From Candidatus Omnitrophica bacterium UBA6233 (GTDB taxonomy: Bacteria; Omnitrophota; Gorgyraeia; Gygaellales; Profunditerraquicolaceae), in contig DJWJ01000026.1 of assembly GCA_002440965.1 (NCBI GenBank), positions 23,439 through 87,438 of the forward strand: a DNA stretch of 64,000 bases, written 5' to 3'. The notes beneath the pieces were generated by a model, which had not been told where the DNA came from, made no database searches, and saw only the letters and a program-made list of their open reading frames with translations. The position numbers and the translations under genes are program-made. Positions 7,277 through 31,100 of the stretch are shown here, piece after piece. The stretch's first letter is position 1; each line of letters begins with the position of its first letter.

Positions 7277-7280
7277 TTTT

Positions 7281-8320: not shown

Positions 8321-8322
8321 AG

Positions 8323-9692: not shown

Positions 9693-9721
9693 AATTTAAC
9701 ATAAGTTACTGGAAGGGTCAA
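9693..9721 (-). promoter_or_regulatory. Candidate sigma70-type promoter (TTGACC-N17-TAAATT) upstream of the SBP/permease genes
   Basis: Read on the minus strand: TTGACC (9721..9716), 17 nt, TAAATT (9698..9693), in the 115-nt gap between the PilZ stop and the SBP start. Sequence match only. Confidence 0.25.
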
Positions 9722-9746
9722 GGCTTTTATTCAGGTTTTATTGCAA

Positions 9747-10061
9747 TTAAACGGCTCTTAAAACCCTGGACATCCCCATAAAATCCGCTCTCTCCAAGCT
9801 TACCCCGATATTATACTCGCTAGGATTGACCATCCTTGACCAGGCAACTTCTCCCCGGGTATAGAATGGCTCGCCTTTGTCCGGAACATCCAGCCATATC
9901 TCTAGCGGGGTGCGAAGCCTTAATTCCTCCTTCGCCATAAATCCTATGCCCTTAGCGCTGATGTCCCTGGTCTCTCCGGAACCCTCCACACTTGCCCTCG
10001 GATCAATGAATCTTAAGGGGAACCTAGCCTGAAACCGTTCAAAGATTCTTCGGTCATCCAT
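9747..10061 (-). CDS. PilZ-domain c-di-GMP-binding protein
   Basis: 104 aa. It has an RxxxR motif (RRIFERFQARFPLRF) and a D/NxSxxG motif (DISAKGIGF). The SD-like GAGGGGG lies ~8 nt upstream of the ATG. It begins 40 nt after the giant ORF's stop. Confidence 0.8.
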   Translation of the reverse strand: MDDRRIFERFQARFPLRFIDPRASVEGSGETRDISAKGIGFMAKEELRLRTPLEIWLDVPDKGEPFYTRGEVAWSRMVNPSEYNIGVSLERADFMGMSRVLRAV

Positions 10062-10101: not shown

Positions 10102-13100
10102 CTACGGCTTTATTATATTCTTATTCTGTTTTTTTTCAACTTTTACCTTATTATTTTTCCCTTCGGCCAGGTTTCTCCATAACTGCTTGACTACATAATA
10201 ACTCTTCCTGGGAATGCGTTTATTCAAGCCGTTCTCCGTCTCTTCGGACACTGCCACAATCCCAAACCATTCCTCATTCATATTTTTATTGTATTTAGCT
10301 CTTATATCATGGTAGTAACTTCCGTTGGACCAGTTCGATTCGGTATTATGAGCCTTCCACCCGTCGCTGTTATTACATTCCTGGGCGGATTCATTATGCT
10401 TCCACCATTCATCTGTCCATTCAAACATTATCCCGCCTAAACAATTGCCCATGCCTTCTTTACTGCCGGCTAAATTTTCATAAATCTGACGCCACTGCAT
10501 CTCCAGGAAATACGCCTGCATATTCTGGTCTTCTTTGTTTAAATAGGCGTCATACGCGTCAGCGCCAAACTCTGCCACCAGAATCGGCTTATCAAGATCG
10601 GCCTTTACAGATTTGAATAAATTCCCGAAGGCCTTACCACGATAAATCATACAGGCGATTAAGTCAACGTCTTTTGTTACGGCCGCAGCCAAAGCTAGAT
10701 TCGTAATTTCACAATTACCTAAGGCTACCGGATGGTTAGGGTCTATTTTATGAATCTCTTTGGCCACTTCATTGACAAAAGAATAGTAAATCCTGGCGCG
10801 CATCTCGATTTGTTTCGAAGGATTCGGTTCTTTGTCGATTCCGCTGGTGCACCAAGGCCTAAATTGTCCGGAGAAAGAACGGTTATTTTCATTACCCAAA
10901 ATCCACATTAAGACTCCCGGTTCATCCTTATACCGATTAACCATTTCTAAAACTTCCCTTTTGATTTTTTCCCGGAAATCCTTAGCATTATACGCGGAGC
11001 AAGGCCCATCCCAGAGCCCCAAATCGTGGCCTAAAATAGTGCGGATACCATAAAGCTTGAAGAAATCCCTGATTACCTGCTTAACTGCCTGCGGATTCTG
11101 CCCAACCGTATAAATTCTGCCTGTATTCAAGCCCATATCTTGCATCAATTTTCCGTCGGTAATCCAAGGCTTACCCGGGTCAGACCACCAGTCATAATCA
11201 TAGTTCTGACCGATAGGTATAGGATTATAACAAACACCTTTAACAATATATGGCTTACGTTCGACTATCAACTGGTGATAGCTGTCTTTGGACTTATTGA
11301 TATAAACCTCGGGCTGAGGAACAGGAGAAATCTGCATTATAGCCATCAAAATAAGGAAAGCGAATAAAACCAAACAAAGCTTTCCTATCTTCTTAACTAT
11401 CCATTTTAATGGACAAAACAAATAACCGGAGACAAGAGCGGCTACGCAAACCAACGGTTTCAACTTCAAGGTAAGATTTCGTAATGCCAGCTTCGCATAT
11501 TCCCAAACAAGAGAATAAGGACGTTCGAATATTCTGGCCTGGGCTGCGATTGCTTCCGGGTCGCTGGAGAATTTTTCGTGGAAGGAGATTTGCGCGACTA
11601 TGAATCTTATTTCTTGAGGAGAAAATCCTAATTTGGCGAGCAGCTGTTCAGTTTCTTTTTTTCGGGCTTTATTCCAGGTTTTATTGGTAGCGATAGGATA
11701 ATCCAATATCGCGGCGTGCTCATCTTCGGTTAAATCTTGGATCAATTTTGCTAATCCTGTTCTTCCTTGCGGAGGCGCCTTAAGTTTACCTGAATAAATA
11801 AGATACCTTACTGCCGCTATCCTGAATAAAGCATTACCAAATTCATTGAACCGCAAAGAAATTCCCCGATGATCATAATAATCAAATTCGGCCTCATAAC
11901 AATCGCGGGCGGTGATAGCGTGCCCGTTCTGCCTGGATAGATTAATAGCGAATAATTTGGCTGCTCTGTATAAAGCAGGCGCTCCCCGCTTGATTCCGCC
12001 CTTATACCTTTCTATCGCCATTTTAGCCAGCCCGGGCGTAGCATATTTAGGAAGAGTCGCTTTCCCTATCGGCATAAAAGCTGCGAATTCTAATTTATCC
12101 CGGCTACCCTGGCCATTCTTATATTCCAACCCATATTCCTGGGAAATCTTTCCTGTTTTCTCCACTAAAAACGCGATCTTTTTTTCGTAAGCCATACTAT
12201 GAAAAGTATCGGCATTTTCTATAATACAATCTTTTAAGGCTTCTAAAGCTTTCTTGATTTTTTTGTCTTTTATAATAGCCAAGGAATAAAAATCTAAACA
12301 GGCCATGAAGAAAATGGCCAAGTCTGTCTTGTGCATCTTTAACCGGTTGTGCAATATTAAACTCCATACTTTCTTTTCTTTTTCCAGAAACCGTATATTT
12401 GGATTACCGTTTTCCCATAGTTTATATTCGATTAATAAACTCTGAAAAAGGGAAGATTCTCTACTATCTAATTCAATACCAAAGAATTTGGCCGTCTTGC
12501 GCAAAAACTGGCTTTTGTTTTCTCTTGTGTTCAATACCGCTTCTAATGCAAATCCGGGCGTAGGATATTTATAGACTATCCCTTTACCAAAAGGAACAAA
12601 AGCAGCTATTTCAAGTTTATCTTTTTCGCCATTGCCGTTGTTATAATTTAAATTATACCTTTGAGACAGCCTGCTTACCTCTGCTATCAACAAGGTTGCC
12701 TTTTTTTCTCTACGCAACTGTTTAAAGAAATGCCTTTTTTGGTACAGGAAAATAACTAATCCCCTGACAGCTTTATGTGTAACAACATCGCTGATGATTG
12801 TATTATCAACTAGCTTAACCCAGATTATCCATTGCGCGGCAATGCCGCCTTTGACTTTATTTAACTTATAAGAATAAAATACAGCTGATAATTCCTTAAT
12901 TTGAGCGATAATACCGGCATCCAAATGCGATTTTTCCCACGCCTTGTATTCGTTAACGGCATTGGTAAAACGCGCGCGCAGGCTTTCGGTAATTCTTTTA
13001 GATAGCTTTATACCAAAAGCATTAGCCCTCATAAGCAGAAGCGGATATTTCTTCTTTATTTGTCCTTGATCATGCATAAGCGCCTTTTCCAGTTCTCTTT

Positions 13101-16100
13101 TCACAATGCCCAGGGTGGGATATTTAGGAAAAACACCGCAGCCCATAGGCGTTAAAGCCGCAAATTCCAGCTTATCTCTTTCGCCTAACGCGCCATTATT
13201 ACCATACCCTAGACCATACTCTTCAGATAATTTATCCGCTTTTATCATTAAAACTCTTGTCCTGTATTCATAAGACATTGACTGAATATTACCTTTCTCT
13301 TTTTCCACATAATCCTTCAATGCCCACAACGCCCTTTTAGTCTGCGCGTCTTTAATCAAAGTTAAACCCTGGATATCCAACCATACCGATATGTAGGCGA
13401 CCGCATCTTTTCCTTTCTTATCTAACCTGTTACTCCTTAATAGTTCCCATAGCTTCTTTTCTTTCGCGATCAGATCTGCATCCTTTTGGGCGCTTTCCCA
13501 GTTGTTGTATTTGACCAGTATTATCTTGTACAGAAACCGGCACCCCTCGGTCAACCTGATGTTGAATGTCTTGGCTGCCCTGTAAAGCATCTGATCCCGG
13601 GCTCCGGATATCCAACTCTCTATTGCTAATCCGGGAGTATGGTATCTTGCGACTTTACCATACAACATTGGAGGCAAAGCCGCGAATTCCAGCTTATCTC
13701 TTTCTCCATTGCCGCAAGCATAATCCAAGCCGTAGCGCTTCGCTAACTCTTCGGCTTCCTTGGCCAAAAATCTTGCCTTGCCCTTGCGGCCTAATTTCAG
13801 GAAATATTCCTTGTCCAGGGATAAGGAAAAAATCAGTCTTTCAACCGCTTTCCTGGTAAGATAGCTGGAAATGGCCAGCTGGCTAAACAGCTTCATCCAT
13901 ACTATCCAGGGATAAATCGGATTTTTTGCATGAAAGAATTCCGTAAAGTTATTGCGCCGGTAGATATCCCAAATCTTTTCGGCCTGGCAGCGTAAATCCA
14001 GGGCTTCATTATCCTTATTATTATGCCTATACTCATCCACAGCTTTTTGATAGGAAGGCGGATTGGGAATGGATTTATTTAATAAGAAAAACTTGCTGGT
14101 TGTCTTGCTTGACCTGATAACAAACATGCTGCTGAAAAATCCGATAAATTTCCTGTCATCGCTTATTTTTCTCCTGACAGCTCCTAATACAGCCCTGCCG
14201 AATCTACTTTCATAGCCTCTCTTGAGCACCGATTCTTCAACATACTGTGCAACTTCACGGGAAAAATCAGCATTCGAGAATATAACCAATAATGCTGTTG
14301 TTAAACGAGATGTACACTCTTTTTTGGATTTCTCGGATAGAATATCTAGAATTACTTTAAACACATCTTCTTTTTTAGTTATGGTATTACCCACCCTATT
14401 CGCTATCGGTTTTTGATATTTTTGTTGGCCCGCTATCAACCTTAACCTCTTCAAAGATTTTTCTTCAATCTGCCTGACTCTTTCTTTTGTCAGACATAAT
14501 AAATCGCCGATTTTTTCAAGGGTCATTCTTCCGTTATCGAAAGAGAACAAGCCGTAACGCAGTATCAACACTATCCTCTCATCATCCTCTAATTTTTCCA
14601 ACATAACGCCTACGGCTTCCTTCAATATTGCCCTGCGGGTATTCTCCTGAGGAGAAGCAAACGTATTTTGTTCGATGAAACTTCCCTGGCTATCTTCGCC
14701 TTCCGAGCTGATTGGAGCATCCAATGATACAGGGTCGCGAATCTCAAGTAGCTTTTTGATTTTTTCTACAGGCAAGCTCATCCGCTGAGCCAGTTCTTCA
14801 GGAGCAGGTTCTCTTCTATATTCCTGTACGAACTTCTGGGAAATCTTCTCTAATTTATATTTTTTCTCCAACATATAAACCGGCGCCCGTATCATATGAT
14901 TCTTCTCCGAAAGTGCTCGGGTAATTGCCTGGCGTGTCCACCAAGAAGCATAAGTGGAGAACTTATTGCCTTTCTTATAATCAAATTTTTCGATAGCCGG
15001 GAACAATCCTAATCTTCCGTAGCCGAATAAATCATCGAATGTCATCCCGCAGCCAGGGTATTTTTTGATAATATCACCCACCAGCCCAAGATTACACATT
15101 ACCAGGCAGCCAGTAATGGTTTTTGTCTCTTCGGGGGCCTTTACCGCGTGAAGAGCTTTAAATAACTCAACCTCTTCTTCTCTGCTCAGGACGTAACGGA
15201 AATTTTTAAATCTAAACTGGGCCAATATTCTCCTAGCTAAGCCTAAGCCATCCTCTTTAATATTCTTAAACAGGACTTTTGCTAACCTCTCTGCAGCCCT
15301 TACGTTTTCTTTTTTATTAATTAAATGCCCGTGCTCATGCTCAAACAGTTCTATTAAAATGGCCTCTTGGTTTGCTTGGATAAGTTTGACTATTAATTCA
15401 AGGGGAATGATAATCTGGGAATTATAAAGGCAGGCGGCTATGAATCTTTCTATGCTATCATACAAAAGTAAGCCCGGAGGGCCTTTTGACCTGACATCCG
15501 AATCAGCAAGAAATAAATAAACATTCTCTTTATTGAGCCAGCGGATTAACTGGGGAGTCAAAGCCAACAACGCCTTTTTATCCTGAGGTAAATCCTTATA
15601 GCGAACAAGACGATTCTCTTTCTGTGCCTTGGAGATGACTTTCTTCGTCTGCTTCTTGGCTTTTTTATCCATAGCGCCTTCTTCATAAATTCCCAACCCG
15701 CAGGCAGAGACATCGGGATCTTCTTCTAACAACTCTTCAATTTTTGTCGTTTCCCGTCCTGAAGCAAACCAGGCAATGCCCACAGGATTAGGCAACTGCA
15801 ACAGCGTAAGCCGCTTTTCTTTAAGCGCAGAAACAACGGCCCGGGTTGAAACGGACACGATTAAGAATGCTGAAAATATTGAAAGGAATAGCATCGCAGT
15901 AAAAAGATTGTTGTAAGAAACAAAGGCACATATAAATAAAGTTATCCCGGAGAAACTGATAATGAAAGGTATTAATGCGCGGCCACGATGATCCGTTAAC
16001 CGGTTCGGGCCAGCTTCCTGAAACGCGCGGCTAAAGGCGCTTTCCGGGCCTCTATTCAACGCTATATCTTTAATTCGCCGGGCCACTCCTTCGGTAAATC

Positions 16101-19100
16101 CTTCGTCGGATAAAACTAACCGCAATGCGCTGGCTAGCCTGCCAAAAACTACGCTATTAGCCTTTTGATTCAAAATATCCACAATCTTTCTCAATACGGC
16201 CTCTCTATCGGCTAGAACATTCTCCGGAATCTCAACAATAGGTTTATTTTCTTTAATGGAGGCCTTGAATATCCTTTTTGACTTCTTGATTGCCGCCTCC
16301 TCTATCTGCCTAATTCTTTCCTCGCTTAAACACAGAAAATTCCCTATTTCTTTACGCGTCTTTGTTTCGCCAGAAGCGCTATATAATCCGTAACGCAAAA
16401 CCAATATTACCCGCTGGTTATCACTTAACTGTGAGAGTAATGTCCTTGTATTTTCTTTTAATATATACCGGTTCGCATTTACTCTGGGAGAAACGAATTT
16501 GTTTTGTTCAATTAAATCTAATAGGCTGTCTTCCCCTGCACCAAATGGAGAATCCAGGGAAATGGGGTCACAAGTTATAATGAGATTTTTAATAGTCTCT
16601 TCGGAAAAATCGGTAATTTCGGCTAACTCTTCCTGCGTAGGATCTCTGCCGAATTCCTGGGTAAATTTCTCAGAAATTAAGCGTAATTTAGATTGCTTCT
16701 TCTGCATATACATCGACACCTGCATCTTATGGGATTCCTTCCTGGACGCTCGGGTAATCGACTGGTATATCCACCAACTGGCATAAGTTATAAACCTATA
16801 ACCTTTTTTATAGTCATATGTTTTAGTAGCCCGCAATAACCCGAGATATCCTTCGCTAACGAATTCTTTTGTTCCTCTCCCACATTTTTTAGCTGTATCA
16901 ATAATAAATCCTAAATTGCACCTTAGTAGGCAATCGAGAATATCTTTTCTTTCGGAAGAACTGATCCCGTTCTCCAGGGCTTTGAACAATTCGATTTCTT
17001 CCTCTTGATTCAAGAGATACCCGCCGCCACATTTCAATTCTTCCAATATTCTTTTAGCCAGATGCCAGCCGTCCTCTTTGATAACGCTCAATAACTCTCT
17101 TGCTAATTCCTCCCCTTCGCCTGTGTCTTCCCGGCCGCCCAGAAGATGCCTCTTCTCGTGTTCAAAGAGTCTTATTAAAAGACTCTCCTGGCCTGCTTGA
17201 ATAAGTTTTGCGATTAATTCAAAGGGGATATAAATGGCGGAGTCGTAAGCGCAGGCGAGTAAAAATCTATCTTTATTTTCATACCAAAGGAATCCCGGAG
17301 GACCTTTTGACATTATCTTAGATGCAGGGAGGACTAGCTGGATATTTTCTTGGTTTAACCAATTCAATAGTTGAGGAGTAAGGACCAATTCCTGTCTTTT
17401 ATCCTGCGGCAAATCCTGATAGCGGAAGATGCGATTCTCTCTTAAGGCCTTGAAGATGATTTTTTCTGTTTCCTTTACCCCCTCCGCGTCCATCGCGCCG
17501 TCGGAAGTATAAATTCCCAACCCGCAGGCAGAATGGTCAGAAGAATTATGGATATCATGATATTGTGTTAGCTGCAAAAGGAAGTTCTTAAATTTTGGAC
17601 TGAAATTGTCAGATAATCCCAATGCCCACCTTAACACAATATCAAAAATATATTCTTCTCTGGTATTCCCTAAAATTGTTTCGGCAGGAGGATTAATCAT
17701 AAAAGTAGCGTGGTCGCAAGTAAGGATGCGGCCGTCGACACTGATGAATAAAAATATTTTATCCGGGCGGCGATGAGAGAAAATATCATCCATACTCAAT
17801 GGTTCCGCTTCCGGCAAAGACTTTGCCCCACCCTGAGCGATAAGATGATTTATATGAAACATTCTTTCGCCCCATATTATATATCTTTCATATAAGCCGT
17901 ATTTTTTAAGAATACGGAACCGGTTTTCCGCACGAGATAACCTTATATTATATGCAGCTCGCAGCCTTCCTTCGCGCCACCTATAACTTTCCTCAATGGC
18001 CTTGATAACCTTTACCATATCTTTGTCTCTTTTTTTCGCCTCTTTTTCATGCCACTGGTCAAGGGAAAAAACTAACTCAACATTATCAGGAATTTTGCCT
18101 AAAAATTTGTCCATCTCTTCATGGTCTTCTGGGAAAGATAAACCATTGGTATCTATATGAACCTCGCCGATGTGCTTGCTGGCGGACCAAAGAATTTCCC
18201 AGAAATCAGCCGAAGGCTGGTTATCCGTATAATTTTTCTTTTTGTAGGCAAAAGGCTCTCCGCCGACAAAATACACACTGGGAAATCCATCTAACTGCCG
18301 GATTATCCTTTTAATCTGATCCATAGGCAAGTCTACGTTAGGATCTTTCTCAATAACATCCTTGGCAATGCAAAATCTACATCTATATGGGCAGCGATGC
18401 GTTATCATAATATTGATATTCGAGTCTAATTTCGGAAACTCCGTCTTTAGGAGATCGAATAAAATCGCTACTCTTTGAGGGGATTTATTTATCATCTGGG
18501 CGGCCTGCTTTCCAACATCGGCTAAGACGCCGGCAGTGAGTTTTTGGATATTCCGGTCTTCGGCTTTTAATGCCTGGATAGCCGCCCGCAGAGTTCCATC
18601 CGAAAGTTTAACTACCCATGGTTTATCTGTCTGGCTTAAAGATTTAACTATCAATCTATAAGTGCGACTGATTTTTACGAAGTCCATAAGATAGGTAGAA
18701 TAAGGGGATCGCGCGCTGTCTTCGATAAACTCAGACTTAGCGATAATATAGTAGATATTTTCTTGCCGGTTTGCAGGTTGCCATCCTAATTTTGCTAAAA
18801 CTTCTATTGCGTCTTTCCAGCGATAAAGAAATCCGCTTTTTAATACTCCGAAAAGAAATTCTTCCAAAGCCCTAAGAAAAGGCTCGACTGCAGATGGGCC
18901 GATTTTAATCAAAGTTTCTATTATGCAATTACAAACACTCCAATTTTCTTGTCCGAATCCAGAGGCGGCTTTAAGCTCATTCTCAACAACAAGGTCATTT
19001 AAGGCTTTAATAAGGCAAGGAATTATGGGTGGGCCGATTTTCACTAATGTGTCCATTGTAAGATGACGGAAATTCCAATCATCATCGTTTAATGCTCCAA

Positions 19101-22100
19101 TAAGATAAAGAACCGCAGGCTCACCGATTCTAACTAAATCCTCCCATCTTTCTTTAGCAATAAAGTAAAGGATTTCTTCTTCCTGACTTACAGGCTGCCA
19201 TCCTAATTTTTCCAAAGCTTTTGCTGCGCATGCACGGACATAATGGCTTTTATCTTCCAAAGCTTTAATAATGACCTGCGTTGCTCTTATATCGCCAATC
19301 TCACCCAAAGTCTTTACTATAGGCATACGAACCATGGCATTATATTCACGATTAAATCTTTCAATCAAAGGTACAACTGCCCCTTTGTATCCAAAGTAAC
19401 CGAGGCTACTAGCTGCGCCGGCACGAACAAACTCATCGGGATGCCTTAATTTATATACATATTTTCCAAATTCTAACTCAAAGGACAGAACTTCTTGCGC
19501 TAAACTTTCTCCTTCTTCGACATTCTCTATGCCGATGGCTAAATCCCTATCTTCGTGTTCAAATACTCGGATTAAAAGCTCTTCAGGGAGTGAGATTATC
19601 AAGTCAAAAGTAAAAATATCCGGACAGGCTACTAAAAATCTCCTGGAATGCTCGTACCAAAGCATGCCCGGAGGACTTCTTGAATTTATACCTGACTCAG
19701 AAAGGACAATATAAGGATTGCGTTCCTCTAACCATCTTGCTACTCGGGGTGTTACTGCTAACTGCTCTTTTTTGTCTTGAGGTAAGTCTTGATAGCGTAG
19801 GAGGCGCTTTTCTTTTTTAGCTTTAAACAAAGCTTCCTTTTTCTTCTGCTGGGCTTTTTTATCAATTTTCCCTTCTTTTGTGTAAATTCCCAAACCGCAG
19901 GCATAGACATCGAAATCTCCTCCTGCTTTCTCCTTAACCACCAATGGTTCTGCCAAAGTATCTAAAGCTTCGACGTTCTTCTTTAAAATCAGTAAATTAT
20001 CCTCGATTTCCTTGTATAAGATGACTTCGGGATATCTTATCTCCTCCAAGGGGATAAAGAGATCTGGGTTTTTTATCTTTTGAAGTATAGCTGCTGTCTC
20101 AATCAAGGCTCCATTAAAACTAGCTATCGTATTTAGCAACGCAACCTTCTCCTGGACAACCCTATTATTCTTATTTCGAAGAGATGCTTCAAGAATAAAT
20201 CGCTCTTTCCTGAGATGCTTAAGATAAGCAAATATCTGTTCTTCTATTATTGGATTCAAACCCTCATCCTTGTTCCCCATGTGGTATTCCAATAACAGTA
20301 ATATTTTTTTCATCTCCCGAGAAAAATATTTTGCCATATCCAATGTTTTCTTTCGACTCTCTTGTAATCGATATGACACTAAGATACTGACTGTGCCTAA
20401 AAATGTTAAAAGACTTATCGCCATGTCAGCTAAACAACTAACCAGATTTCCCGCCATAAAGATCTCTTTTGTAAAAAGAAACACGGGAGAAAGCATTATA
20501 CCTGTGATAATCGACCCATTAACCAAAGCCGCCAGCGCCCGCTTGGGATCTCTTTCGATATACCGCATAAAACCAGGACGATAACCTGCTATAATAATCG
20601 TCAACATAACAGATGTAACAAACGAAGCGAGAGCAAAAGCAATAGCCGACACGGATAAAATCGTAAACTTAACGTATTCCCGCGGACAGACGATGCTTAT
20701 AAAAAAAGATAACAGAAGAGACAAGGCTGCTATAATTATTGATGTTTTTACTCCGCAAAACTGCGTTCTTTTGTTCAATCGGACTTTCCAAACAGACGCT
20801 TTCAATCTCATCCTTACCTTTGATATTATGAATATGGCTAATAGAGGTAAACTGAAGATACTAAAAATATAAACTTTAGAGATGCGGTTTTTTAATAAAA
20901 CTTTGGCTATAGTCTTACGAGTATCTTCATTCTTTTCGCTGAAGAGACTCTTAACAAGAGAAAGAAATGCCCGGAAGCTTATATTCTTTTTCCCGCCTAA
21001 GCCCCTGGCGGCGCAGATGCGGACATAATAATCTTTGTCTTTTAATAATACGCTGGCCAGGCACTCTTCTGTTTTAAGGCCGTTAAAATTACTTAGCGCA
21101 TTGACAGCGGATGCGCGCACGCGCTGATCCGGATGGTTAAGCGCTGCTTCGCTTATGAATTTGGCGCTTTGCGCGGTTCCAATCTTCCCGAGAATGCGGA
21201 TTGCGGTATCGACAGACTGCCACCTTTTGTCCGATAACAAAACGTCCTCAAGGAAACTGACGGCCGAAGGCTCCATGCTACCAAGGGTTTTTTCAGCCAT
21301 AAAGCTAAGGCTATGATACCTGGAATCCAAGTCGTAATACTTATACAATGACAATTCTAAAAGAAGCCATGCCGCCGGATCGCCTTTCTTCTTTAAAGCG
21401 CCCCAATCCCGCCTAGCCAGAAGATAAAGAATCCCCTGCCATTCGCTCTCAGGCTGCCATCCCCAATTAGCAAGCGCCTCTGCCGCAGCAAAACTGACCC
21501 AAGGATCCATATCCCTAAGCGCATCCGCCAATAGAGCCCTGGATTCAGGAAGATCAACCCTGCTTAATTCGCGCACTATGGCCAAACGCTCCTGCCAATT
21601 TTTATTCCCGAATCCTTTTTCCAGGATAATATCGGCAATCTTATTTCCACCTTTACCGGCTAGAATTCCCTGTGTGTCTAAACGAGCTATCAGTTTCTTG
21701 GCCCTGTAAAGGACGATCTGCTCTCTTGCCGATGGCGATATAGCATTCGTAGTCTCAGGGCAATACGTGGCAGAAATAGAGAAAAACACACCGGCCGCAA
21801 AAATAACTCTCAAGATAATCTTTTTTGAATGAAACAGGTTATCTTTTATTTTTAAAAGGGCATTTTTTAGACGACGCATAGCGTAGGACAAAATCTCGGC
21901 ATAACCGGCCCTAAAAAGAAACAAACCATATCCCCAGGAGGGAAGAGTAACAATCATTTCTTCTTTACCGAAAGTAACCAGGACACTCTTCGAGCAGAGT
22001 TTCGCTATAAATCTGTTGTTTATTTTTCCCGGCACTCCGGAGTTGCCTTTATAATAATCAAGAACAGTATTGAAGTTTATTTTAATAATTACTGGATAAA

Positions 22101-25100
22101 GCGAGTGATTAACAAGGACTATGGCGTCTTCTCCGGGCAGGTGCCGCACAAAAGGCACTAACCCTGTATCTTTAATATCAACTTTTCTCCCGCAGAATTC
22201 TATTTCTTCCAAATATGCGCTGAAGAATCTTCCCTTACGAAAAACAGGCCTGGATATAAATTTAATCAACTCTGTGAGCGGCCTAACCGCCAGGGAATTA
22301 TCTTTTAAAACATCCGGGTAGGAAAACTGATAAATACCCGCGTCAGGATTCTTCATCATTATGCGCGCTCCCGGAGGAATTCCCATACCGAAAAGCTGAC
22401 GCAAAGGGATAAGAACATACCCGGGGACAGCATAAGAAATCATTGCCGCAGCCATAAGGCGTTCCATGCCGCCAAAAGCGGCCATTGCCGGAGGCTCATC
22501 GTGAGTTTCGACAAAATGAACGCAGCGGCTTAAGAACTCTTCCTTATGCTCACCCATAAATAGATATCCCCGCAAAGAAGCAATATTCCCTTCTCTAAGC
22601 AAATCGTAGAGATATTTATCATAAGGAATCATCCCGCATTTCTGCAGCGTATCATGCGTCCCATAACCATAAGTTTCAGCCAGCATCAACATATTCGGAT
22701 ATTCCTTGCGGGCATCCTCCCAGAATTCATTAGGCATTGATTTTTGGAATTCTTCCCAGCTTATCCCTAAAGGCTCAACCCAGGTCTTCCAGGTATGCTC
22801 TTTTAACCCCAGGTGCGCCAGATCCGCCCTGAAACCGCCGTTATGGGTAAGATAAGCGATCTTGGCCATTATCTCCTTGATCATGAATCTGCGCGCCCTT
22901 TCATCAAAATAATTCACCTGGGCCAGGTTTATCATCGGCGGGTTCTGTTCAAAGAAAGCGTTTTCCCGGGCATGCATAAAAATAAGCCCGGATGTTTTAT
23001 CCTGTGAAAATGAGTGGTATTCATTTTCTATTAAGAATTTCAACTGCTCATCGCAAAGCCCCCGCGACAAGTTGGGAAAATATCTACGCGCCAATTGAAC
23101 GAATCTCTGGTAATCACCGCTTATTGTTAACTCCGGAGCTTCCTTGATTAATGGTGAATCGGCGGCAATATGGTTAGTTACAAAATCAACGACGACCCTT
23201 ATATTTTTGTGTTCCAAGTTTTCGGCCACCGCCCGGAAATCTTTTTCATTACCGGCGACTTTCGGATTAATGCCGTATTTATAGACATCGTAGCCGGAAG
23301 GGCCCCTCTTCAATGTCTCATTATCTTCCTTGTTCCACTTCTGCATCAATTTCCCGGAAAGCTCGCTTTCTTCCCATGACGCTTTAAACCAGATAACTCC
23401 GATACCCATCCCGGAAAGCCAATTCCAAAATCCCGCGGGAACCCTGTCTACGGTTCCATAAGTGTTACTTAAAGCGCGGCCGTCAATTTCAGTAATTATC
23501 TGCGTGGATTCTTCGGGGGGCCTGCGGAATTCGTTGCTCAAGACAGCGATGGTAGATATTCTTTCCATCTCACGGATATAACTTTTATCAATCTCCGCGA
23601 TTTCTTTTAATTGCTCCACGCCCAGGAGAAACGCCCCTAATTCTTTTCTGTGGTCTCTGTAATAAATGTGGGCATTATGACAAGCGCGTTTATGCGCTTC
23701 TCCCGGAGGGCAATGTAATTCCTTTAATTCTCCTGATTCATGGAGACAGATATCGGGAAGCAATATTTCCTGCAGGCGAGAGTCTTCGATAAGTAACCAG
23801 TGGATAACAAACACCAAAGTATTTGCGTATCTTTTGATTTCAAAAAACTTCCCGTTCTTTCTGCCAATAAGTTCAACTTGTATTTTTATCTGCGGCGGAG
23901 CATGGATTAAAATACCTTCCAGCACTTTTTCTACCTGACTAAGTAAACTCTCTTGCTCCATTTCCGTAAGTTTCCCGCCTATTAAAAATATTCTCAACCC
24001 GGCTTCCCCGTTCTTCTTTTCCAAAAATACCTCCGGCTTCCTAACTTCTTGTTTTGCTGTCCCATGATAACCGCGAGGATCTTCTTCATTTGCGCTCCCT
24101 AGCCAAAAATTAGTAGAGCCGGCTACGGGCTTGGATTGTTCGGCTAAAAGTTGATTAATTATATTCAGTATTTTTCCGTAAGGGTCGTTGCCTTCAAGTA
24201 TACCCTGGCTGAATTTTCTGTATAATTCCTTATATTTAGGATCATAAAATACTTTGGCGGTCTCCTGCCTTAAATCCCTGTAATCGGTTTCTTCAAGCTG
24301 ATCCGGAGTTTGATTCCGGATAGGATAATAATTAAAACTGCAAAGTATCCGCTCAAGTTCTAGAGCTTCGTCGTCAGCCAGGATCTTTTCCTTGTTAAAC
24401 TTTATGATCTTATCTATAAGGTTAACGAACAACCTCGCTTTCCATTCCCGCGTTTCGTATAAAAATACCTTTCCAGCGGATATAGCTTCGGTTAAGCTCA
24501 TATCGCCGGTAGTAGCGACCGGTAAATCTGATATGACAACGAGTTTACTAAAAAGTTCGTGCGGTAAGATACCCGAAGGCGCGATAGTCACCTCTGAACC
24601 TCTGCGTGAGGTTGCCATACTACCGGAACCCATATATCCAAATCCTCTTTCCATTGCCTCCTTGCGCAAATACTCTAGCTCCTCTACCCCATTGGCTGAA
24701 ACGAATATCAATTTATTCTTCTTTGCGAATTCCCTGCTTTCTCTTTCGGAAAAACTCAACATCTGCAGATATTCAACAGCCGAATTATAGACATAAACCA
24801 GGCCGATAAGTGCCTGGCTAAAGTCATTTAAACGAAGCGGGCTGATTTCTTGAATGCCGCTTACCGCAAAGATATCAGAAATAACCTTTTTCCTTTCCGC
24901 AAGCTTTTCTTGAGAATTTAAATTATCGTAATAGGCTTTATACTTAAGAATAGCCGATTCAACAAAGAACCCAATGGCTTCTTTACCAAATCCGGCCTTA
25001 AGCATCAATGCTGAAGGCGACTTGTTCTTCTTAACAGAAGAGGATATTCTCTTAACAGGCGGCACATAATCATATTCTTCCAGGGAGATTTTAATATTCG

Positions 25101-28100
25101 GGGTTCCTCTCAATGCTTCAAAAACGCTTTCTTCCCACCCTTCACTTACAGAAATAAGGATATCCTCTTTTTTTAGGTCTTTTTTGAGAGCCTCTATTTC
25201 CTGAAAAGCTATTTCAACCCCGCTGTCGGCAAGGAATCTGCCAAAATTAATCTTTATAACTTCGTTAAATACGGCCTCATCTTCGGGCCTTCGTTTTACA
25301 TTAACTAATTTTAGTTCTACTTCCGGGACCAATTTTTTTAATCCCTTCGCAAAATTGGCCGCTTCTGCCGCATCACCGCATCTGCCAAAATGCCTGAAGA
25401 GAACTATTATCCTCCCTTTTATCCCTGACGAAGGCGGGCCGCAGATTCCATTAGGCTGGACATTTTGAGGCTTAAGGTCTTTAAGTGGAAGGGGAGAATT
25501 TTTATTCAAGGTGTAATTTTTTAAAAGAAGGGTATCGAGCGCTTCCTTTATCAAAACCCACATTTCCGCTTTTCGCGAGCCGATCTCTGCCAAATGCAAC
25601 TGATACACATCCTTAGTCAGCTTCTTTAATTCCAATAACTGTTTTACCTTTTCAGCGTTAAAAGATAATTCGAGTTCCTCGAAAGCCTTCTCCAGTTTTT
25701 CGGCAAGAATAAGCGCGGCGCGGGAATCATCGTCTTGCGGTATATTATTTAATGTCGCGGCGGCTAATCTAAACAGTTTTCTTTGTTCGCCGCGCGATAA
25801 TCTCCGGTTAAAATACTCTCCAAGCTCGCTTAGATAATCATTAACGTTAATATGCGCGGGCAACCGCCGCTTTTGGTGTTTCTTGGTTGCCGGTATGGCC
25901 ATCAAACTGCGGATAAGCGAACTGGTAATTACTTTCGAACAAGCGGCAGCCTTCATTATTGCCTCTATAAAGTCTTCATCCGCGCAGATAATAGAATCAG
26001 TGCCATAGCTCTCGCCATCCAGATGAGTGGACATCCAAAATACCGCCCTGAAATTATCCTCGGCCCTCTCCTTCCTCAAGGCGTCAATAAGCGCGTTCGA
26101 TTTCTGCAAAACAATATGTTCCAGCTGACAAAATTTTGCCTGTTCAACACAAACCTCTTGGCCTTTGTAAGGATATCTTTTGGAATCCCGCAGCAACTCT
26201 TCCACACTGGAATCTTTAACGCAGTATTCATCCCTGCCAAGCTTATTAATCCAGGCGGCAATATCTTTTATCCGGGCAATTTTAATTAATCTGTCCAACA
26301 TCAGGCTGTCTTCTCTAACGGCAATCTTGGATTTAAAAGTAAAACCTTGCAGGCTGTCCGCGTCTGCTACCACATCCTCATCCGAAATAATAGCGGCCGC
26401 CAGCAAATAGGCTATAGCCGGAGAAACCCTAAAATTGTATTTAAAATACCTCTGCGCAAGGATAGCGCAAGTGCAGGATACCGAATCTTTAATTTCAGAA
26501 TTTTTAGGCGCAGGAATATCGTTTAATTTAGGATGGTGGTCTATGATCGAGATTACCTCAAAAGCCCTGAGCTCTTCTCTTTCAACTCCGCTATAGTCAA
26601 ATGAGGCAAATTTTATTTTCCCTCTTGCTTCATCGGGCATCCGGGCAATCTTTTTGATCGGTTCTTCGATGTTTTGATAATAAATCATATCATTTTCTTT
26701 AATACCAACGTCCCCCAAAACATCCCTTGTCCCCTCATCTAAGCTATCATTCATTACCGGGAAATACTGAACCTTTTTTTCTTCCCCGGGGAGAATATTC
26801 TTAATTTTGGTAAAAAGATGCGCGCCCAAGAATGCCGAGATGCCGCCATCTTTTTCCTGAGTCCGATGCGGCAAGCAAATAACTATTTCTTCATTTATCT
26901 CTTCTCCCTTAGCAATCTTTTCCAAGTAGCCCGTGAGTTTCTGTAAGTTCTGCTCTTTTGAAAACTTTTGCAAATCGGAATCGAAATGCTCCGGAATAAT
27001 ACTTTTTTTGCTTAATAGTTCATTTTTATTTTTGCCTGAATCATCAGGATTTAAGGGTTTTAGGCCATTTATAAATTCATCCAAACCCTTGGCTATAGAG
27101 TTCTTGAATCTTTCAGCCGATTCCACAAAATCACGGTCATATTCAAGGAGCCGCTTTCCTTCCTGGACCTGGCTTAAGAAAATGGTTTTATTTTCTTCGC
27201 ATTTCTTATGCAGCTCCACAGGTTTGGCATATAATTTCAGGAATACTCCAAAATCATCTGCTCCCAAATCATTTTTAGCTGCCTGATAATACCCATACAC
27301 CTCTAAAAACATCAGGAATGACTGCCAACCGATTGCCGCAGACAAAAGATTAGGATAATCTTTAAGGATATTATAAACAGGCCCGCTGATGTAGATAGCC
27401 CCCCGCTTAAGAGAATGACGAATATAACAACGGGAACCGTTCTTGCCCTGCGCAAGAAAAGGATAGGCCTGGCCTGTTATCTCCAGAGCGACTATGTCGA
27501 GATTCCTTTCATCGAGGAACTTATTATAGGCTTCCTTAATCTCTTCCGGAGCCCATCCGTTTAAATACCCAAAGGCAGCCAAAGCGGAAATAATGCCCGG
27601 GGCAAGCTTTTTTATTTCCCGGATGGTTTTTTCAATACGGCTTCTCTCTTTAAACCTTCTGTCCTCACACCCCTTTTCGCTGGAGGAAAACTTAATATCC
27701 TTATCTCCCCACAATAAATACATACCTCTGCTTTTTCGAACCGACTCTTTTAAAATCTGTTCGGGTATCTCATCGACAGGCAAAAGCACTTTCTTTATCA
27801 GTCCTGCGACATCCGAGGAAAAGATATAGGTAAGGATAGATTTCATTTTAAAATAAAAATATTTCGGACGGACAGTCCCTTTTATCGCCGCTAAAAGGGA
27901 TTCATTGCTGGCCTCAACATAAAACTTCTTTTCTTTTTCTTCCCGCGATAAATTAAACTTAAGGGAATTTACGTCACTGATTTTTATAATCTTTATGTGC
28001 GACTTCCAGCGATTCAACAGAACATCCCGGTCAAAAGGCTCATTCTCCGTATCAATAGTTTTAACTGTTATATTCGCTACAGGAAGAACCCAGCTGATAA

Positions 28101-31100
28101 GCCTGAATAAACTTACTACCATAATATTGAGCAGAGGCCGTTCCTTAATATATTCTAATGTCTTTTTCAAAATTTTAAGTTGCTCGGTATTAACTGCGTA
28201 AGGGGCTCTTACATCCATTAAAGCCAAAGCAATACAATTGCTTTCCCAGGGCTTAAGCCCGGCCTCATCAAAAAGAGACAAAGGAAGGTTTCCCTCGGGG
28301 TGAATACTTCCATCAATCAATTCCCATTTTCTATATTCTCCTTTATACTTACCTATCCATATTACCGGATTAAATATTACGGGAAGCGAAATACTGGCTC
28401 TTATGGCTAAGTCTATGGGCATATCCGGGCAATTCTCTGCGTTTAGCTTCAAGAGCCTCTTAGTGAGGTAATCTACAGCTGTAACTGTCAGATTAAACGG
28501 GTAATTGGCTTCTTTAAGCTCACCGAAAGTGGGGATAAAACCAAACCTGTCTATTATAAGGCTTCTAATCCACTCTAATACGGCGTCTCCTTTAGATATT
28601 CCTCCGCGGGAAAGAAGATTCCAAGTGAAACCAATACTGCCAACGGGAGGGTTGGAGAATCCGGATGCGTCCGTATCGTATGCTTTTTCTTTGGCGGCCC
28701 TGGCATCATAACCAAGCATCAAGAATAAAGCGACAATTGCCCCTATTGACGTCGCTCCCAGATTAGTAAAACAATATCCTTCTTTTTCTATTGCCTCTAT
28801 AATTTGGTAATAACGTAAACCGTCGATGCCGCCTCCGGGAATTATACCGTAATCAATCAGCTTCTTGCTTTGCCGGTATTTTTCAATCTCCGGGATTACC
28901 TTTCGAATCTGCTCTTTTCTCCATTCTTTACATTCAATATCTGGTCCTTTGGTATCCGGCGATACTGCGGTTTTCTCCTTGTGTCTTTCCTTAAAATCGG
29001 AGATCTCGGCAGCCAGGCCGTGCCAAAAACAAAAGATGGCAAAGGCAAGCATAGGAATAAAGAAAAAAACTACCGTCAGGAATAAACAGGTGTTTTCACT
29101 TACGTTAGAACCCGGCCCCATGGGCCAACCGGCAGTTAGAATACCTGTTAAGAAAAAGGTTGTTAGAGATACAACAGGCAGGAATAAACGGAAAATGCGG
29201 CTGCGGATTCTCGCTAAAATACTGCCGGATTTACCGGCTGGCGGCTGGTTGCGCGCTTTATCCGGTTGAACGGAATTTTGTGTTTTGGAAGCGCTTTCGT
29301 TTTCCGGAAAAATAAGAATATTCAATTCGGTTTCTTTATCAAAGAAATACGCGCGTTTCATATCAAATACTACGTCTATCTCTGTGTCTTTCTTGGGCCG
29401 GCCTTTTGTAAAGACTGCCTTAAAATTAATGCCATCAACAGAAAGCCCAACCTCTGCCTTTGAACCTAACTCTTCAGTTATATCTACTTTTACATGCACC
29501 GCATTATATGGACTATATAATCCCTGAACCTGAACATTCTGGGCATATAGCTTATCGTATATATCATTTGGCCTTATGCCAAAAAAGATATCCTTATTAA
29601 CATAGCCGGATATTTGCTCCGCCATTGTATCGTCAATTTTTAGAATAAAATTTTCTCCTGCCTTAAAATAATACCCTTCATTTCGTAAAATCTTCCCTTC
29701 TATGAAATTCATCGATGGGGAACCGATAAAACCAGCGACAAATTTATTCTTCGGCTTATCATAAACATCCATAGGTTCCCCGATTTGCTGGATAGTGCCG
29801 TCTTTCATCACCATTATCCGCGTGCCCATAGTTAAAGCTTCAATTTGATCATGGGTAACGAAAATAAAGGTGGTCTCTTTGCCTAAACGCTGATGCAGCT
29901 TTTTCAGCTCGGTACGCATCTGGCCGCGCAGCTTAGCGTCTAAATTACTTAAGGGTTCATCAAAAAGAAAAACCAACGGTTTACGCACAATAGTACGACC
30001 GATAGCCACGCGCTGTCTCTCGCCGCCGGAAATATTACGAGGCTTCTTCTCAAGCAGTTCTACGATACCTAAAATCTGGGCTGCTTCCGTAACTTTAGCT
30101 TTAATCAATTCTTTCTTTACTTTTCTCAGCTTTAACCCAAAAGCCATATTCTCAAAAATTGTCATATGGGAATAGAGCGCATAATTTTGGAAAACCAGAG
30201 CAATGTTACGGTCTTTTGCCGGCGTGTCATTAACAAGATTGTTTCTTATATATATTTTCCCTTCGCTTATCTCTTCCAAACCAGCAATCATCCTTAGTGT
30301 AGTAGACTTCCCGCATCCTGACGGCCCGACTATAATAAAAAATTCTCCTTCATCAACCTCAAAATCTATGGATTTAACCGCATAATGCACCGGATCCTTG
30401 CTTCTGCCGGGATAAATTTTACTTAACTTAACGGCTCTCACGCTCTTATTCAAAGCTGAATCGCATTCTTTTACCCTATCGGCCTTTTGATTAGCTTCGG
30501 TTTCTGAATGCGCGAATAATCTGGTTTGGCTAAGTCTTTTTGCTTGATAAACTTTGATTGCTTTATAAATTTTATAGCCCAGATAAATCAGTAGCCCGGC
30601 AGATATAACCACTTTAGCTAAAACGGACAGTCCGCTTAAAAACGGCAAGCCGGCGAACAAGGATACATTGGCCGGAGAAACATTGGCATAACAATCCCGC
30701 ATTTTTTGGTACCGATCATTCAAGGAATTTTTCTTTGCGCCGTAAAATCTAAAAGACGGGGCCCTATCTTTAGAAAATATCCACTCCGGCAGTTCATCCT
30801 GCAGGATTTCTTCTTCCGGCCATAGCGGTATGCTCATCCAATCCATCCCGCTTATATCGATTGCGGCAAACAGCTTCCCTAATCTTCTCTGATGCGCCTG
30901 AGCAAAGAAACGGCCTCTCGCAGCCCAGGCGAGCGGAGCATCGGTTCCCTCTATTGCATGCGGACCCCTCTTACCAGTAAGGTAATCTAAACGTTTCCTG
31001 CTGTTTTTAAGCGGTATTCCTTCCAGAAGAGCATCCATCCATCCGCGAGTCTTTTCCTCGCTTCCCAGCTCTTTAGCGTAATCCAGAATATATTTTCCCA

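What the first reader, a model, noticed from the sequence alone, without database searches (positions are those of the whole stretch)
17662..18444. Radical-SAM core embedded between HEAT repeats and sigma-70 in a membrane protein
A CxxxCxxC motif plus the GGE SAM motif give a bona fide radical-SAM signature at aa ~15160-15420. Its immediate flanks have no recognisable SPASM or twitch domain, and it sits in an unexpected regulatory context. The function is unclear; it may act in maturation or crosslinking, or it may be a captured gene.
Basis: seen in the sequence. Interest (0 to 1): 0.5.

Follow-up and report, generated by a model that had tools for sequence, protein, structure and literature searches.

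The report
Radical-SAM module inside Omnitrophota giant protein
The flagged stretch is a genuine, complete radical-SAM enzyme domain sitting inside a 17,939-residue membrane protein of an Omnitrophota bacterium; such domains are already catalogued in these giant proteins, and this one belongs to a rare, unnamed, single-iron-sulfur-cluster subfamily whose substrate is still unknown.

Summary
On the minus strand, one ORF (10102-63921) encodes 17,939 aa. Its residues 15,165-15,440 (nt 17602-18429) are a full radical-SAM domain: CPYRCRFC, GGE, TNG, SxDxxH. Pfam PF04055 scores 49.9 bits against a cut-off of 29.5. The AlphaFold model has pLDDT 93.8.

The domain belongs to a rare, discrete, uncurated subfamily. 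113 cluster representatives out of 1.84 billion match, and 57 of them cover the whole domain. Most members are embedded in long Omnitrophota proteins; some are small stand-alone genes, for example in Margulisiibacteriota. Only the three cluster-binding cysteines are conserved, so there is no auxiliary SPASM or twitch cluster, although a Cys-less twitch-like hairpin and helix remain.

Flanking domains are not conserved among relatives. The HEAT repeats recur upstream in two relatives and a sigma-70 module flanks the domain in one, so the domain is a shuffled module.

Radical_SAM is already listed among frequent domains of Omnitrophota giant proteins (two preprints). This is therefore a new member of a known kind. 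Its chemistry is inferred and its substrate is unresolved; I lean towards a peptide or protein.

The parts
10102..63921 (-). Giant ORF of 17,939 aa. It is a multi-enzyme, multi-pass membrane protein that contains the domain.
   Evidence: ORF list. Pfam map: ROK, APH, HMGL-like, VWA, AAA_5, NHL, GGDEF, ABC_tran+OB_MalK, Patatin, Alpha-amylase, HEAT_2, Radical_SAM, 2x Sigma70. Hydrophobic clusters. pN/pS of 0.26 against a 99.4%-identical strain over 2,833 codons.
17599..18474 (-). Radical-SAM domain, giant aa ~15,150-15,441. The core modelled was aa 15,165-15,440 (nt 17602-18429).
18370..18393 (-). CPYRCRFC: the CxxxCxxC motif, predicted ligands of the radical-SAM [4Fe-4S] cluster (C15177, C15181, C15184).
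   Evidence: Read from the sequence. These Cys are 100% conserved in 58 family domains. They lie in the loop after strand 1 of the model.
18256..18264 (-). GGE motif (SAM amino-group binding), at the end of strand 2.
   Evidence: Invariant G56 G57 E58 in alignment A3. Position in the model.
18142..18150 (-). TNG motif at the end of strand 3.
   Evidence: T94 and N95 are at least 90% conserved.
18049..18066 (-). SLDQWH (SxDxxH) at the end of strand 4; D and H are invariant. EpeE has the same spacing (SYDEYH).
   Evidence: Invariant D124 and H127. The profile alignment to EpeE shows 'lSvDkyH' aligned to 'ISYDEYH'.
17620..17760 (-). Cys-less twitch-like tail: beta-hairpin (ISVDGRILTCDHATFM) plus helix, with the family motif G.V....HAAfM...P....GN.
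   Evidence: Secondary structure E227-229, E234-236, H239-242, E252-255, H261-269. It aligns to EpeE 'DGEIYPC(C)SPAIF'. The Cys here (aa 15,402) is not conserved in the family.
19201..19449 (-). HEAT repeats upstream that Pfam detects, aa ~14,825-14,907. By eye, HEAT-like helices continue to within ~20 aa of the domain.
   Evidence: PF13646 73.7 bits; member 1; translation.
15982..17553 (-). Module 1 directly after the domain, aa 15,457-15,979. It holds a conserved SACGLGIY segment, HEKRH (an HExxH), then sigma-70 r2/r3/r4 (aa 15,685-15,880).
   Evidence: Pfam; HExxH scan; 46% identity to module 2.
15850..15975 (-). Pair of hydrophobic helices (aa 15,983-16,024) separating the two sigma-70 modules. 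The flanks are K/R-rich and the loop is SYNN.
   Evidence: Kyte-Doolittle scan; flank charges 4 / 0 / 4.
14152..15729 (-). Module 2, aa 16,065-16,590: a paralogue of module 1 (HEHGH plus sigma-70 r2-r4).
   Evidence: BLASTP 46% identity over 528 aa, E = 4e-156; Pfam.

Best explanation
Nt 17599-18474 (minus strand) encode a complete and probably active single-cluster radical-SAM domain. It is one module of a 17,939-aa inner-membrane-anchored multi-enzyme protein from an Omnitrophota bacterium.

Shown:
- The domain has the canonical cluster-binding triad and the SAM-binding motifs.
- It folds in silico, with high confidence, as a (beta/alpha)6 partial barrel with a short Cys-less twitch-like tail.
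- It belongs to a rare, discrete, uncurated subfamily. Members occur mostly inside long Omnitrophota proteins and occasionally as stand-alone genes.
- Its neighbours in the polypeptide differ between relatives, so it is a shuffled cassette and not part of a fixed HEAT-rSAM-sigma unit.

Inferred:
- The segment lies on the cytoplasmic face. It is flanked by K/R-rich membrane borders and shares its segment with a sigma-70 module.
- Its [4Fe-4S]+ cluster would be reduced there, cleave SAM to a 5'-deoxyadenosyl radical and abstract a hydrogen atom from a substrate.
- No second cluster is available, so chemistry that needs an auxiliary cluster as electron sink (SPASM-type thioether or dehydrogenase chemistry) is unlikely.

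My preferred but weakly supported guess is a peptide or protein substrate, with EpeE-like C-H abstraction on a polypeptide. [quoted passage not shown] A sugar or nucleotide substrate is nearly as likely.
For: - Superfamily signal: Pfam PF04055 above its gathering score.
- Motifs: the Cys triad is invariant in 58 domains, and GGE and the D/H of SxDxxH are invariant in the 30-sequence alignment, at 22-44% identity. That argues for retained catalysis.
- Model: AF2 pLDDT 93.8, pTM 0.91.
- PDB profile search: 9dfn 6.5e-15, then EpeE 8e-15. The EpeE alignment spans profile positions 3-240 and includes the shared SxDxxH and the hairpin.
- Discrete family: the family profile scores 272 and 234 bits on two members, then drops to 91 bits for generic SPASM proteins. 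There are 113 representatives in 1.84 billion.
- No curated family: no NCBIfam cut-off is approached by any of 30 members.
- Omnitrophota origin: the neighbouring SBP gene is 73-95% identical to proteins named Ca. Omnitrophota. The closest copy of the domain (43% identity) lies inside a >5,819-aa open frame of an Omnitrophota MAG. Named hits P0002 and P0233 are Omnitrophota.
- Variable context.
- Cytoplasmic side.
- Coding constraint on the ORF: pN/pS 0.26.
- Literature: Radical_SAM is among the top-20 domains of Omnitrophota giant proteins (10.1101/2023.11.21.568195, Supp. Fig. S1 legend). PF04055 occurs in 90 of 916 long proteins (10.64898/2026.06.07.730766).
Against: - There is no biochemical evidence of any kind. 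Activity, cluster content and substrate are all inferred.
- EpeE's defining features are missing: the auxiliary cluster and the H-donor Cys223. The aligned residue is Asp. The neighbouring Cys of the window copy is not conserved in the family.
- Fold similarity among radical-SAM enzymes is a poor predictor of substrate. Viperin, BlsE, DesII and MoaA, which act on nucleotides or sugars, follow closely.
- The 2026 preprint places PF04055 in a sugar-metabolism co-occurrence module.
- No precursor-peptide-like partner was seen next to the stand-alone members.
- Topology rests on a hydrophobicity scan and the positive-inside rule only. West-Roberts et al. predicted the vast majority of detected domains to be extracellular, while calling those predictions unreliable.
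- It is unknown whether the giant product stays intact or is cleaved.
Confidence: 0.6

Rival explanations
1. The domain is a small-molecule radical-SAM enzyme. It would act on a sugar, sugar-nucleotide or nucleotide, in the manner of viperin, DesII, BlsE or BtrN, as part of the carbohydrate-handling content of the giant protein.
- The best PDB profile hit, 9dfn, aligns like a viperin-type enzyme.
- The prokaryotic viperin model matches 27 of 30 family members weakly.
- The same ORF carries ROK kinase, alpha-amylase-like and MalK-like domains, and it is followed by a sugar ABC transporter and GH2_C-like (glycoside-hydrolase-type TIM-barrel) genes.
- PF04055 clusters with sugar-metabolism Pfams in the giant-protein co-occurrence network.
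- Viperin and DesII also work with a single cluster.
Against: - Scores are far below every curated cut-off: viperin_w_prok 29 bits against 180, MoaA 28.5 against 284.
- EpeE aligns over about 25 more residues than any small-molecule enzyme, including the C-terminal tail.
- The immediate neighbours here are HEAT repeats and sigma-70 modules, not sugar enzymes.
Confidence: 0.3
2. The domain is a catalytically dead relic or purely structural module, carried along in a rapidly rearranging giant ORF.
For: - Giant ORFs of this kind rearrange quickly. There is an in-frame 1,359-codon indel between 99.4%-identical strains.
- Sequence upstream of sigma-70 module 1 differs in a relative whose giant-ORF tail is 79-86% identical.
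- Only one synonymous and one non-synonymous difference fall in the domain between strains, so there is no power to show constraint on the domain itself.
Against: - All catalytic motifs are intact. They are invariant or nearly invariant across relatives that share only 22-44% identity.
- The 43%-identical Omnitrophota copy keeps every motif.
- The model is confident throughout.
- pN/pS is 0.26 over the surrounding 2,833 codons.
Confidence: 0.07
3. The domain is an independent gene. It only appears fused, either through assembly chimerism or a lost stop codon, or it is released as a separate protein by proteolysis, for example by the nearby HExxH modules.
For: - Stand-alone homologues of 325-650 aa exist.
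- The giant's C-terminal 380 aa are 63% identical to a stand-alone downstream gene, so fusion of genes into the ORF does happen here.
- HExxH occurs 4 times against 0.3 expected, and one copy lies about 150 aa after the domain.
- West-Roberts et al. raise cleavage of giant proteins as an open question.
Against: - The frame is open across both junctions in two independent assemblies, the window and L002.
- It is also open in the Omnitrophota MAG copy.
- GC content is uniform across the region.
- Most close relatives are embedded far from the ends of long proteins.
- Nothing here tests proteolysis. The HExxH module could not be modelled (pLDDT 43.8).
Confidence: 0.1

Closest known systems
EpeE / YydG, the radical-SAM peptide epimerase of Bacillus subtilis (PDB 8ai1-8ai6)
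   Different: Identity is only 16-17%. EpeE carries a second [4Fe-4S] cluster in an extended twitch ('T-SPASM') domain and uses Cys223 as H-atom donor (PMC13012085). This family has no conserved Cys outside the triad, and Asp aligns with Cys223. EpeE is a small soluble enzyme encoded next to its precursor peptide. This domain is internal to a 17,939-aa membrane protein.
Radical_SAM domains catalogued in Omnitrophota giant ('Archaeovorin'-type and multi-enzyme) proteins
   Same: The setting is the same: an Omnitrophota ORF above 10,000 aa, many transmembrane segments, HEAT repeats, and a patchwork of enzyme Pfams including PF04055.
   Different: The published work lists the Pfam hit only, and one legend glosses it as 'SAM-dependent methyltransferase'. 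It gives no subfamily, motif, fold or context analysis. SecA_DEAD, which West-Roberts et al. report on most giant proteins, was not detected in this ORF at E <= 0.001.
SPASM/twitch radical-SAM enzymes (SkfB, anSME, PqqE, SuiB, BtrN, MoaA)
   Same: They are the nearest sequence neighbours outside the family. After the two family members, the highest-scoring database hits are mostly radical SAM/SPASM proteins carrying PF13186. Weak NCBIfam hits go to W_rSAM_matur, N_Twi_rSAM, the mycofactocin maturase and NirJ. The hairpin-plus-helix tail is retained.
   Different: PF13186 gives no hit and no auxiliary-cluster cysteines are present. All curated cut-offs are missed by a factor of 4 or more in bits.
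Viperin and prokaryotic viperins
   Different: The domain scores 29 bits against the 180-bit cut-off of NF038283. Similarity is limited to the N-terminal two thirds. This family shows no alignment to viperin's C-terminal part.

Membership tests
Radical SAM superfamily (PF04055) | CxxxCxxC motif in the loop after strand 1, supplying three ligands to a [4Fe-4S] cluster | tested here: met
   CPYRCRFC at aa 15,177-15,184. The triad is 100% conserved in 58 family domains. It lies after strand E4-10 of the model.
Radical SAM superfamily (PF04055) | SAM-binding motifs: GGE at the end of strand 2, and polar motifs on strands 3 and 4 | tested here: met
   GGE is invariant, TN(G) is at least 90% conserved, and the D and H of SxDxxH are invariant. 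Positions were checked against the model's strands.
Radical SAM superfamily (PF04055) | Profile score above the curated threshold, and a partial (beta/alpha)6 TIM-barrel fold | tested here: met
Radical SAM superfamily (PF04055) | Reductive cleavage of SAM by a bound [4Fe-4S]+ cluster | not testable with these tools
   Requires anaerobic biochemistry.
SPASM / twitch subgroup | C-terminal Cys-rich motif binding one (twitch) or two (SPASM) auxiliary [4Fe-4S] clusters | tested here: not met
   No PF13186 hit at E <= 1. Only one further alignment column reaches 15% Cys (19%, at aa 15,313), so no Cys beyond the triad is conserved. The window copy has a single extra Cys in its tail (aa 15,402).
SPASM / twitch subgroup | Beta-hairpin followed by a helix packed after strand 6 | tested here: inconclusive
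   The model has a hairpin (E227-229, E234-236) and helices, and these align to EpeE's hairpin. No coordinates were available for a residue-level superposition.
EpeE/YydG-type RiPP epimerases | Auxiliary cluster plus a Cys H-atom donor (Cys223) | tested here: not met
   Asp aligns with Cys223. The Cys aligned with Cys222 occurs in the window and L001 copies but is Ser, Gly or Asn in most of the family.
EpeE/YydG-type RiPP epimerases | Encoded next to a short precursor peptide | tested here: not met
   The domain is internal to a giant ORF. The three stand-alone members examined show no evident precursor gene, although small unannotated ORFs are present.
Viperin / MoaA / other curated NCBIfam radical-SAM families | Score at or above the family's curated cut-off | tested here: not met
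   The best is W_rSAM_matur at 39 bits against 380. Viperin_w_prok gives 29 against 180 and MoaA 28.5 against 284. The window copy's scores are listed against each cut-off, and across the 30 members the best E-value is only 1.4e-17.
Omnitrophota giant multi-enzyme membrane proteins | A single ORF above 10,000 aa with many TM segments, HEAT repeats and diverse enzyme Pfams, in an Omnitrophota genome | tested here: met
   17,939 aa; 13 distinct Pfam domain types; more than 40 hydrophobic segments. Neighbouring genes are 73-95% identical to Omnitrophota proteins.
Omnitrophota giant multi-enzyme membrane proteins | Divergent SecA_DEAD domain (reported on most, not all) | tested here: not met
   No SecA Pfam hit at E <= 0.001 in the four-part scan. 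The feature is frequent but not defining.

The most novel reading that the evidence does not exclude
The domain is a cis-acting maturase. It would be tethered by HEAT repeats next to its own substrate and install radical modifications, such as epimerisation or a C-C/C-X crosslink, on the giant polypeptide itself. One candidate target is the conserved SACGLGIY segment that opens each HExxH-sigma-70 module. Such a modification could gate the release or activity of the membrane-tethered sigma factors. That would make this a RiPP-like enzyme-substrate fusion on the scale of a megaprotein, and a new way of coupling radical chemistry to transcription.
Probability: 0.07. Interest if true: 0.85.

Novelty: new member of a known kind. 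Interest (0 to 1): 0.35.

Why it matters
Omnitrophota giant proteins are largely unexplained, and nobody knows whether their embedded enzyme domains work. This 276-residue domain is one of the few parts that models with very high confidence and carries an unambiguous catalytic signature. That makes it a tractable handle: it can be expressed alone and tested for cluster binding and SAM cleavage.

Three results give radical-SAM specialists a defined target family. The subfamily is discrete and unnamed. It has a single cluster. Its closest fold is EpeE, but it has lost both the auxiliary cluster and the Cys donor.

The surrounding observations bear on how giant genes are built and whether they act as polyproteins. 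These are the in-frame cassette indels between strains, the fusion of a paralogue of a neighbouring gene, and the tandem HExxH-sigma-70 modules.

The presence of a radical-SAM domain in such a protein is not itself new.

Tried and rejected
- **Word-indexed homologue search with the single domain.** It gave no hit at E <= 1e-3. The exhaustive representative search was needed.
- **An obligate HEAT-rSAM pair.** Rejected. Pfam detects HEAT within 300 aa upstream in only 1 of 22 flanks, the window itself. HEAT does recur in L001 and as a separate upstream gene in L006.
- **A conserved rSAM-sigma-70 unit.** Rejected. L001 has GT2 and HATPase_c downstream. Only P0054 has sigma-70 nearby. Module 2 of the window has no rSAM.
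- **Conservation of the flanks by phmmer.** None exists outside aa ~15,150-15,441.
- **A close orthologue, to measure selection on the domain.**
  - L007 (neighbouring SBP gene 95% identical) ends 255 aa upstream of sigma-70 module 1 and is non-homologous there.
  - L008-L010 have unrelated giant-ORF tails.
  - The 99.4%-identical strain, L002, has only 2 substitutions in the domain.
- **Genomic context of stand-alone members.** It was uninformative. P0046 lies next to DFP, Flavoprotein and AMMECR1 genes. P0019 is monocistronic between hrcA-grpE-dnaK-dnaJ and hemW-lepA. P0018 sits among unknown genes.
- **Structure of the HExxH half of module 1.** The model failed (pLDDT 43.8), so no fold search was run.
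- **afdb50 fold library.** Unavailable.
Full report
**1. What is at the coordinates**

The window's minus strand carries one uninterrupted ORF, 10102..63921, of 17,939 codons. The finding's "aa ~15,160-15,420" corresponds exactly to nt 17662-18444 of that ORF.

Translation shows NINIMITHRCPYRCRFC...VYFVGGEPF...HIDTNG...SLDQWH...YNIR...NHLIAQGGA...DGRILTCDHATFM. CPYRCRFC (aa 15,177-15,184, nt 18370-18393) is the only CxxxCxxC in the 17,939 residues. Pfam Radical_SAM scores 49.9 bits (E = 5.4e-13) against a gathering score of 29.5.

**2. The host protein and organism**

Pfam scans of the ORF in four pieces and of sub-segments give this order:
- ROK
- APH
- HMGL-like/HCS_D2
- VWA
- AAA_5
- NHL
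- GGDEF
- ABC_tran+OB_MalK
- Patatin
- Alpha-amylase
- HEAT_2
- Radical_SAM
- two full sigma-70 sets (r2-r3-r4)
- a weak GH2_C-like C-terminus

More than forty strongly hydrophobic 19-mers occur in clusters.

Downstream genes are PilZ, a sugar-type ABC solute-binding protein, two permeases and GH2_C-like proteins. The solute-binding protein is 73-95% identical to proteins that NCBI names Candidatus Omnitrophota/Omnitrophica. The same gene order (giant gene, PilZ, SBP, permeases, GH) recurs in four related contigs. The window is therefore from an Omnitrophota genome, and the ORF is one of the giant genes described for that phylum.

A JGI contig (Ga0074199_1000173, L002) is 99.4% identical but not the same sequence. 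Over 2,833 shared codons pN/pS is 0.26. This supports a translated, constrained ORF.

**3. Anatomy of the domain**

An exhaustive HMMER scan of 1.84 billion cluster representatives found 113 proteins at E <= 1e-3, and 53 at E <= 1e-10, with at most 38% identity. Fifty-seven of them cover the whole domain. Similarity is confined to giant aa ~15,150-15,441, and nothing in the flanks is shared.

In a 30-sequence alignment the invariant positions are the three Cys, GGE, the D and H of SxDxxH, and one Gly. TN(G) and two further Gly are at least 90% conserved. Across 58 domains the only columns rich in Cys are the three of the triad. The family therefore binds a single cluster.

AlphaFold2 with this alignment gives pLDDT 93.8 and pTM 0.91. 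The model has six strand-helix units:
- the triad sits in the loop after strand 1;
- GGE ends strand 2;
- TNG ends strand 3;
- SxDxxH ends strand 4;
- a C-terminal beta-hairpin, short helix, strand and helix follow.

**4. Relationship to known families**

A profile of the family against PDB sequences puts a viperin-like entry (9dfn, 6.5e-15) and EpeE/YydG (8e-15) on top. The EpeE alignment spans 3-240 of 271 profile positions. It includes 'ISYDEYH' opposite 'lSvDkyH', and 'DGEIYPC(C)SPAIF' opposite 'dGevvtsdhaAfm'.

EpeE has an auxiliary cluster in an extended twitch domain and uses Cys223 as H-atom donor (PMC13012085). Here Asp aligns with Cys223. The window's Cys15402 aligns with Cys222 but is Ser, Gly or Asn in most family members.

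No NCBIfam model comes near its cut-off for the window copy or, judging by best E-values, for any of 30 members. The weak hits all belong to the SPASM/twitch/viperin/MoaA neighbourhood.

A profile search of the 5.8-billion-protein collection gives 272 and 234 bits for two family members and then drops to 91 bits for generic radical SAM/SPASM proteins. The family is therefore discrete, rare and uncurated. The domain works like a radical-SAM enzyme and is a member of the superfamily, but it is not a member of any named subfamily.

**5. Who carries it, and next to what**

Named members are Omnitrophota (P0002 'radical SAM protein, partial'; P0233) and one Margulisiibacteriota protein (P0019, 592 aa). 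Most of the closest relatives sit hundreds to thousands of residues inside proteins of up to 7,503 aa.

The closest copy found (43% identity) lies inside an open frame of more than 5,819 aa in an Omnitrophota MAG. There it is again directly preceded by HEAT_2 repeats, but it is followed by GT2 and HATPase_c, not sigma-70.

Among 22 upstream flanks only the window's has Pfam-detectable HEAT, and one other has sigma-70. In one stand-alone case a HEAT_2-containing gene lies two genes upstream.

A near relative, L007, has a giant-ORF tail 79-86% identical to the window from aa 15,603 onward. Upstream of that point it has unrelated sequence, and it also carries a 580-aa insertion. Its contig ends before one can tell whether an rSAM is present.

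The domain is thus a cassette shuffled among different contexts. The arrangement 'between HEAT and sigma-70' is real here but not conserved.

**6. Immediate surroundings in the window**

About 17 residues after the domain begins a ~525-aa module (aa 15,457-15,979). It has a conserved SACGLGIY segment, an HExxH (HEKRH) and sigma-70 r2-r4. After a pair of hydrophobic helices (aa 15,983-16,024) the module is repeated at 46% identity (aa 16,065-16,590, HEHGH).

The two flanks of that helix pair each carry 4 K/R in 20 residues, and the connecting loop (SYNN) carries none. The border after the preceding TM cluster is also K/R-rich. By the positive-inside rule the segment holding HEAT, rSAM and sigma-70 module 1 is cytoplasmic. 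That side is also the one where SAM, reductant and Fe-S assembly are available. This is an inference from a crude scan.

**7. Mechanism**

Shown: an intact and conserved radical-SAM active-site signature, a single cluster, and a confident fold.

Inferred:
- the cytoplasmic location;
- reduction of the cluster;
- SAM cleavage to a 5'-deoxyadenosyl radical;
- H-atom abstraction from a substrate.

The lack of an auxiliary cluster argues against SPASM-type thioether or dehydrogenase chemistry.

The substrate class is unresolved. I lean slightly towards a peptide or protein, for three reasons: EpeE is the best and longest structural match, the SxDxxH spacing is shared, and the protein-binding HEAT repeats recur. 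A sugar or nucleotide substrate is nearly as likely, because viperin, BlsE and DesII are close behind, the host protein and operon have sugar-related content, and the published co-occurrence network links PF04055 to sugar metabolism.

A dead relic is unlikely given the motif conservation. Assembly chimerism is unlikely given the open junctions in independent assemblies. Proteolytic release is untested.

**8. Novelty**

Radical_SAM is listed among the 20 most frequent domains of Omnitrophota giant proteins (10.1101/2023.11.21.568195). It is reported in 90 of 916 long proteins (10.64898/2026.06.07.730766). A literature search found no functional or structural analysis of these domains.

The finding is therefore a new member of a known kind. 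The added value here is the definition of the subfamily, its single-cluster nature, its EpeE-like fold, and the evidence that it is a mobile module.

**9. Verdict**

The flagged feature is real and well-formed, its interpretation as a radical-SAM core is supported, and the setting is already known. Interest is moderate to low (0.35). The most novel reading still open is a cis-acting maturase that modifies the giant polypeptide or gates its tethered sigma factors. I put that at about 7% probability.

Noticed in passing
window 14152-17553 (-), giant aa 15,457-16,590: There are two paralogous ~525-aa modules, 46% identical. Each has a conserved SACGLGIY segment, an HExxH motif (HEKRH, HEHGH) and a full sigma-70 r2-r3-r4 set. 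A pair of hydrophobic helices separates them. HExxH occurs 4 times in the ORF against 0.3 expected. This could be a membrane-tethered sigma factor with its own metalloprotease-like element. AF2 on a two-sequence alignment failed (pLDDT 43.8).
   Followed up: partly
window 11824-16003 (-), compared with L002 8502-8604: A 99.4%-identical strain contig (Ga0074199_1000173) lacks 4,077 nt, exactly 1,359 codons, of the giant ORF, and the frame stays open across the junction. The missing part includes the TM pair and sigma-70 module 2. This is an in-frame cassette gain or loss between near-identical strains.
   Followed up: yes
window 10105-11319 (-) and 1574-2896 (-): The last ~380 residues of the giant protein, after its final hydrophobic segment, are 63% identical to the stand-alone downstream ORF. 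That ORF is a GH2_C-like TIM barrel with an N-terminal anchor. A paralogue of a neighbouring gene has therefore been fused onto the giant ORF.
   Followed up: yes
window 6428-10061 (-) and giant aa 10,543-10,699 and 11,183-11,454: The operon downstream of the giant gene encodes PilZ, a solute-binding protein and two ABC permeases, but no ABC ATPase. The giant protein itself carries a MalK-like ABC ATPase (ABC_tran + OB_MalK) and a GGDEF diguanylate cyclase. The giant protein may supply the missing ATPase, and also the c-di-GMP that PilZ reads.
   Followed up: no
L007 1-9530 (NCBI GCA_028717055.1, JAQUOO010000010.1): This is a close relative: its SBP is 95% identical and its giant-ORF tail 79-86% identical. 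Compared with the window it has a 580-aa insertion between the TM pair and module 2. Upstream of sigma-70 module 1 it has sequence that is 41% identical to window giant aa 9,965-10,168, where the window has its rSAM block. Domain order in these ORFs changes between close relatives.
   Followed up: partly
L006 3183-6884 (JGI Ga0438327_0007259): A stand-alone member of the rSAM subfamily (P0018, 378 aa) overlaps the stop of a 194-aa unknown gene. That gene follows a 649-aa ELFV_dehydrog + HEAT_2 protein. This is a second, gene-level instance of HEAT repeats near this rSAM type.
   Followed up: no
window giant aa ~15,150-15,164 and the hits' upstream flanks: Many family members share a short amphipathic helix just before strand 1 (for example GSATLAFRLMN, GKATAVFRMIK; window RVAILFDLLK). 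It appears to be part of the domain and lies outside the Pfam model.
   Followed up: no
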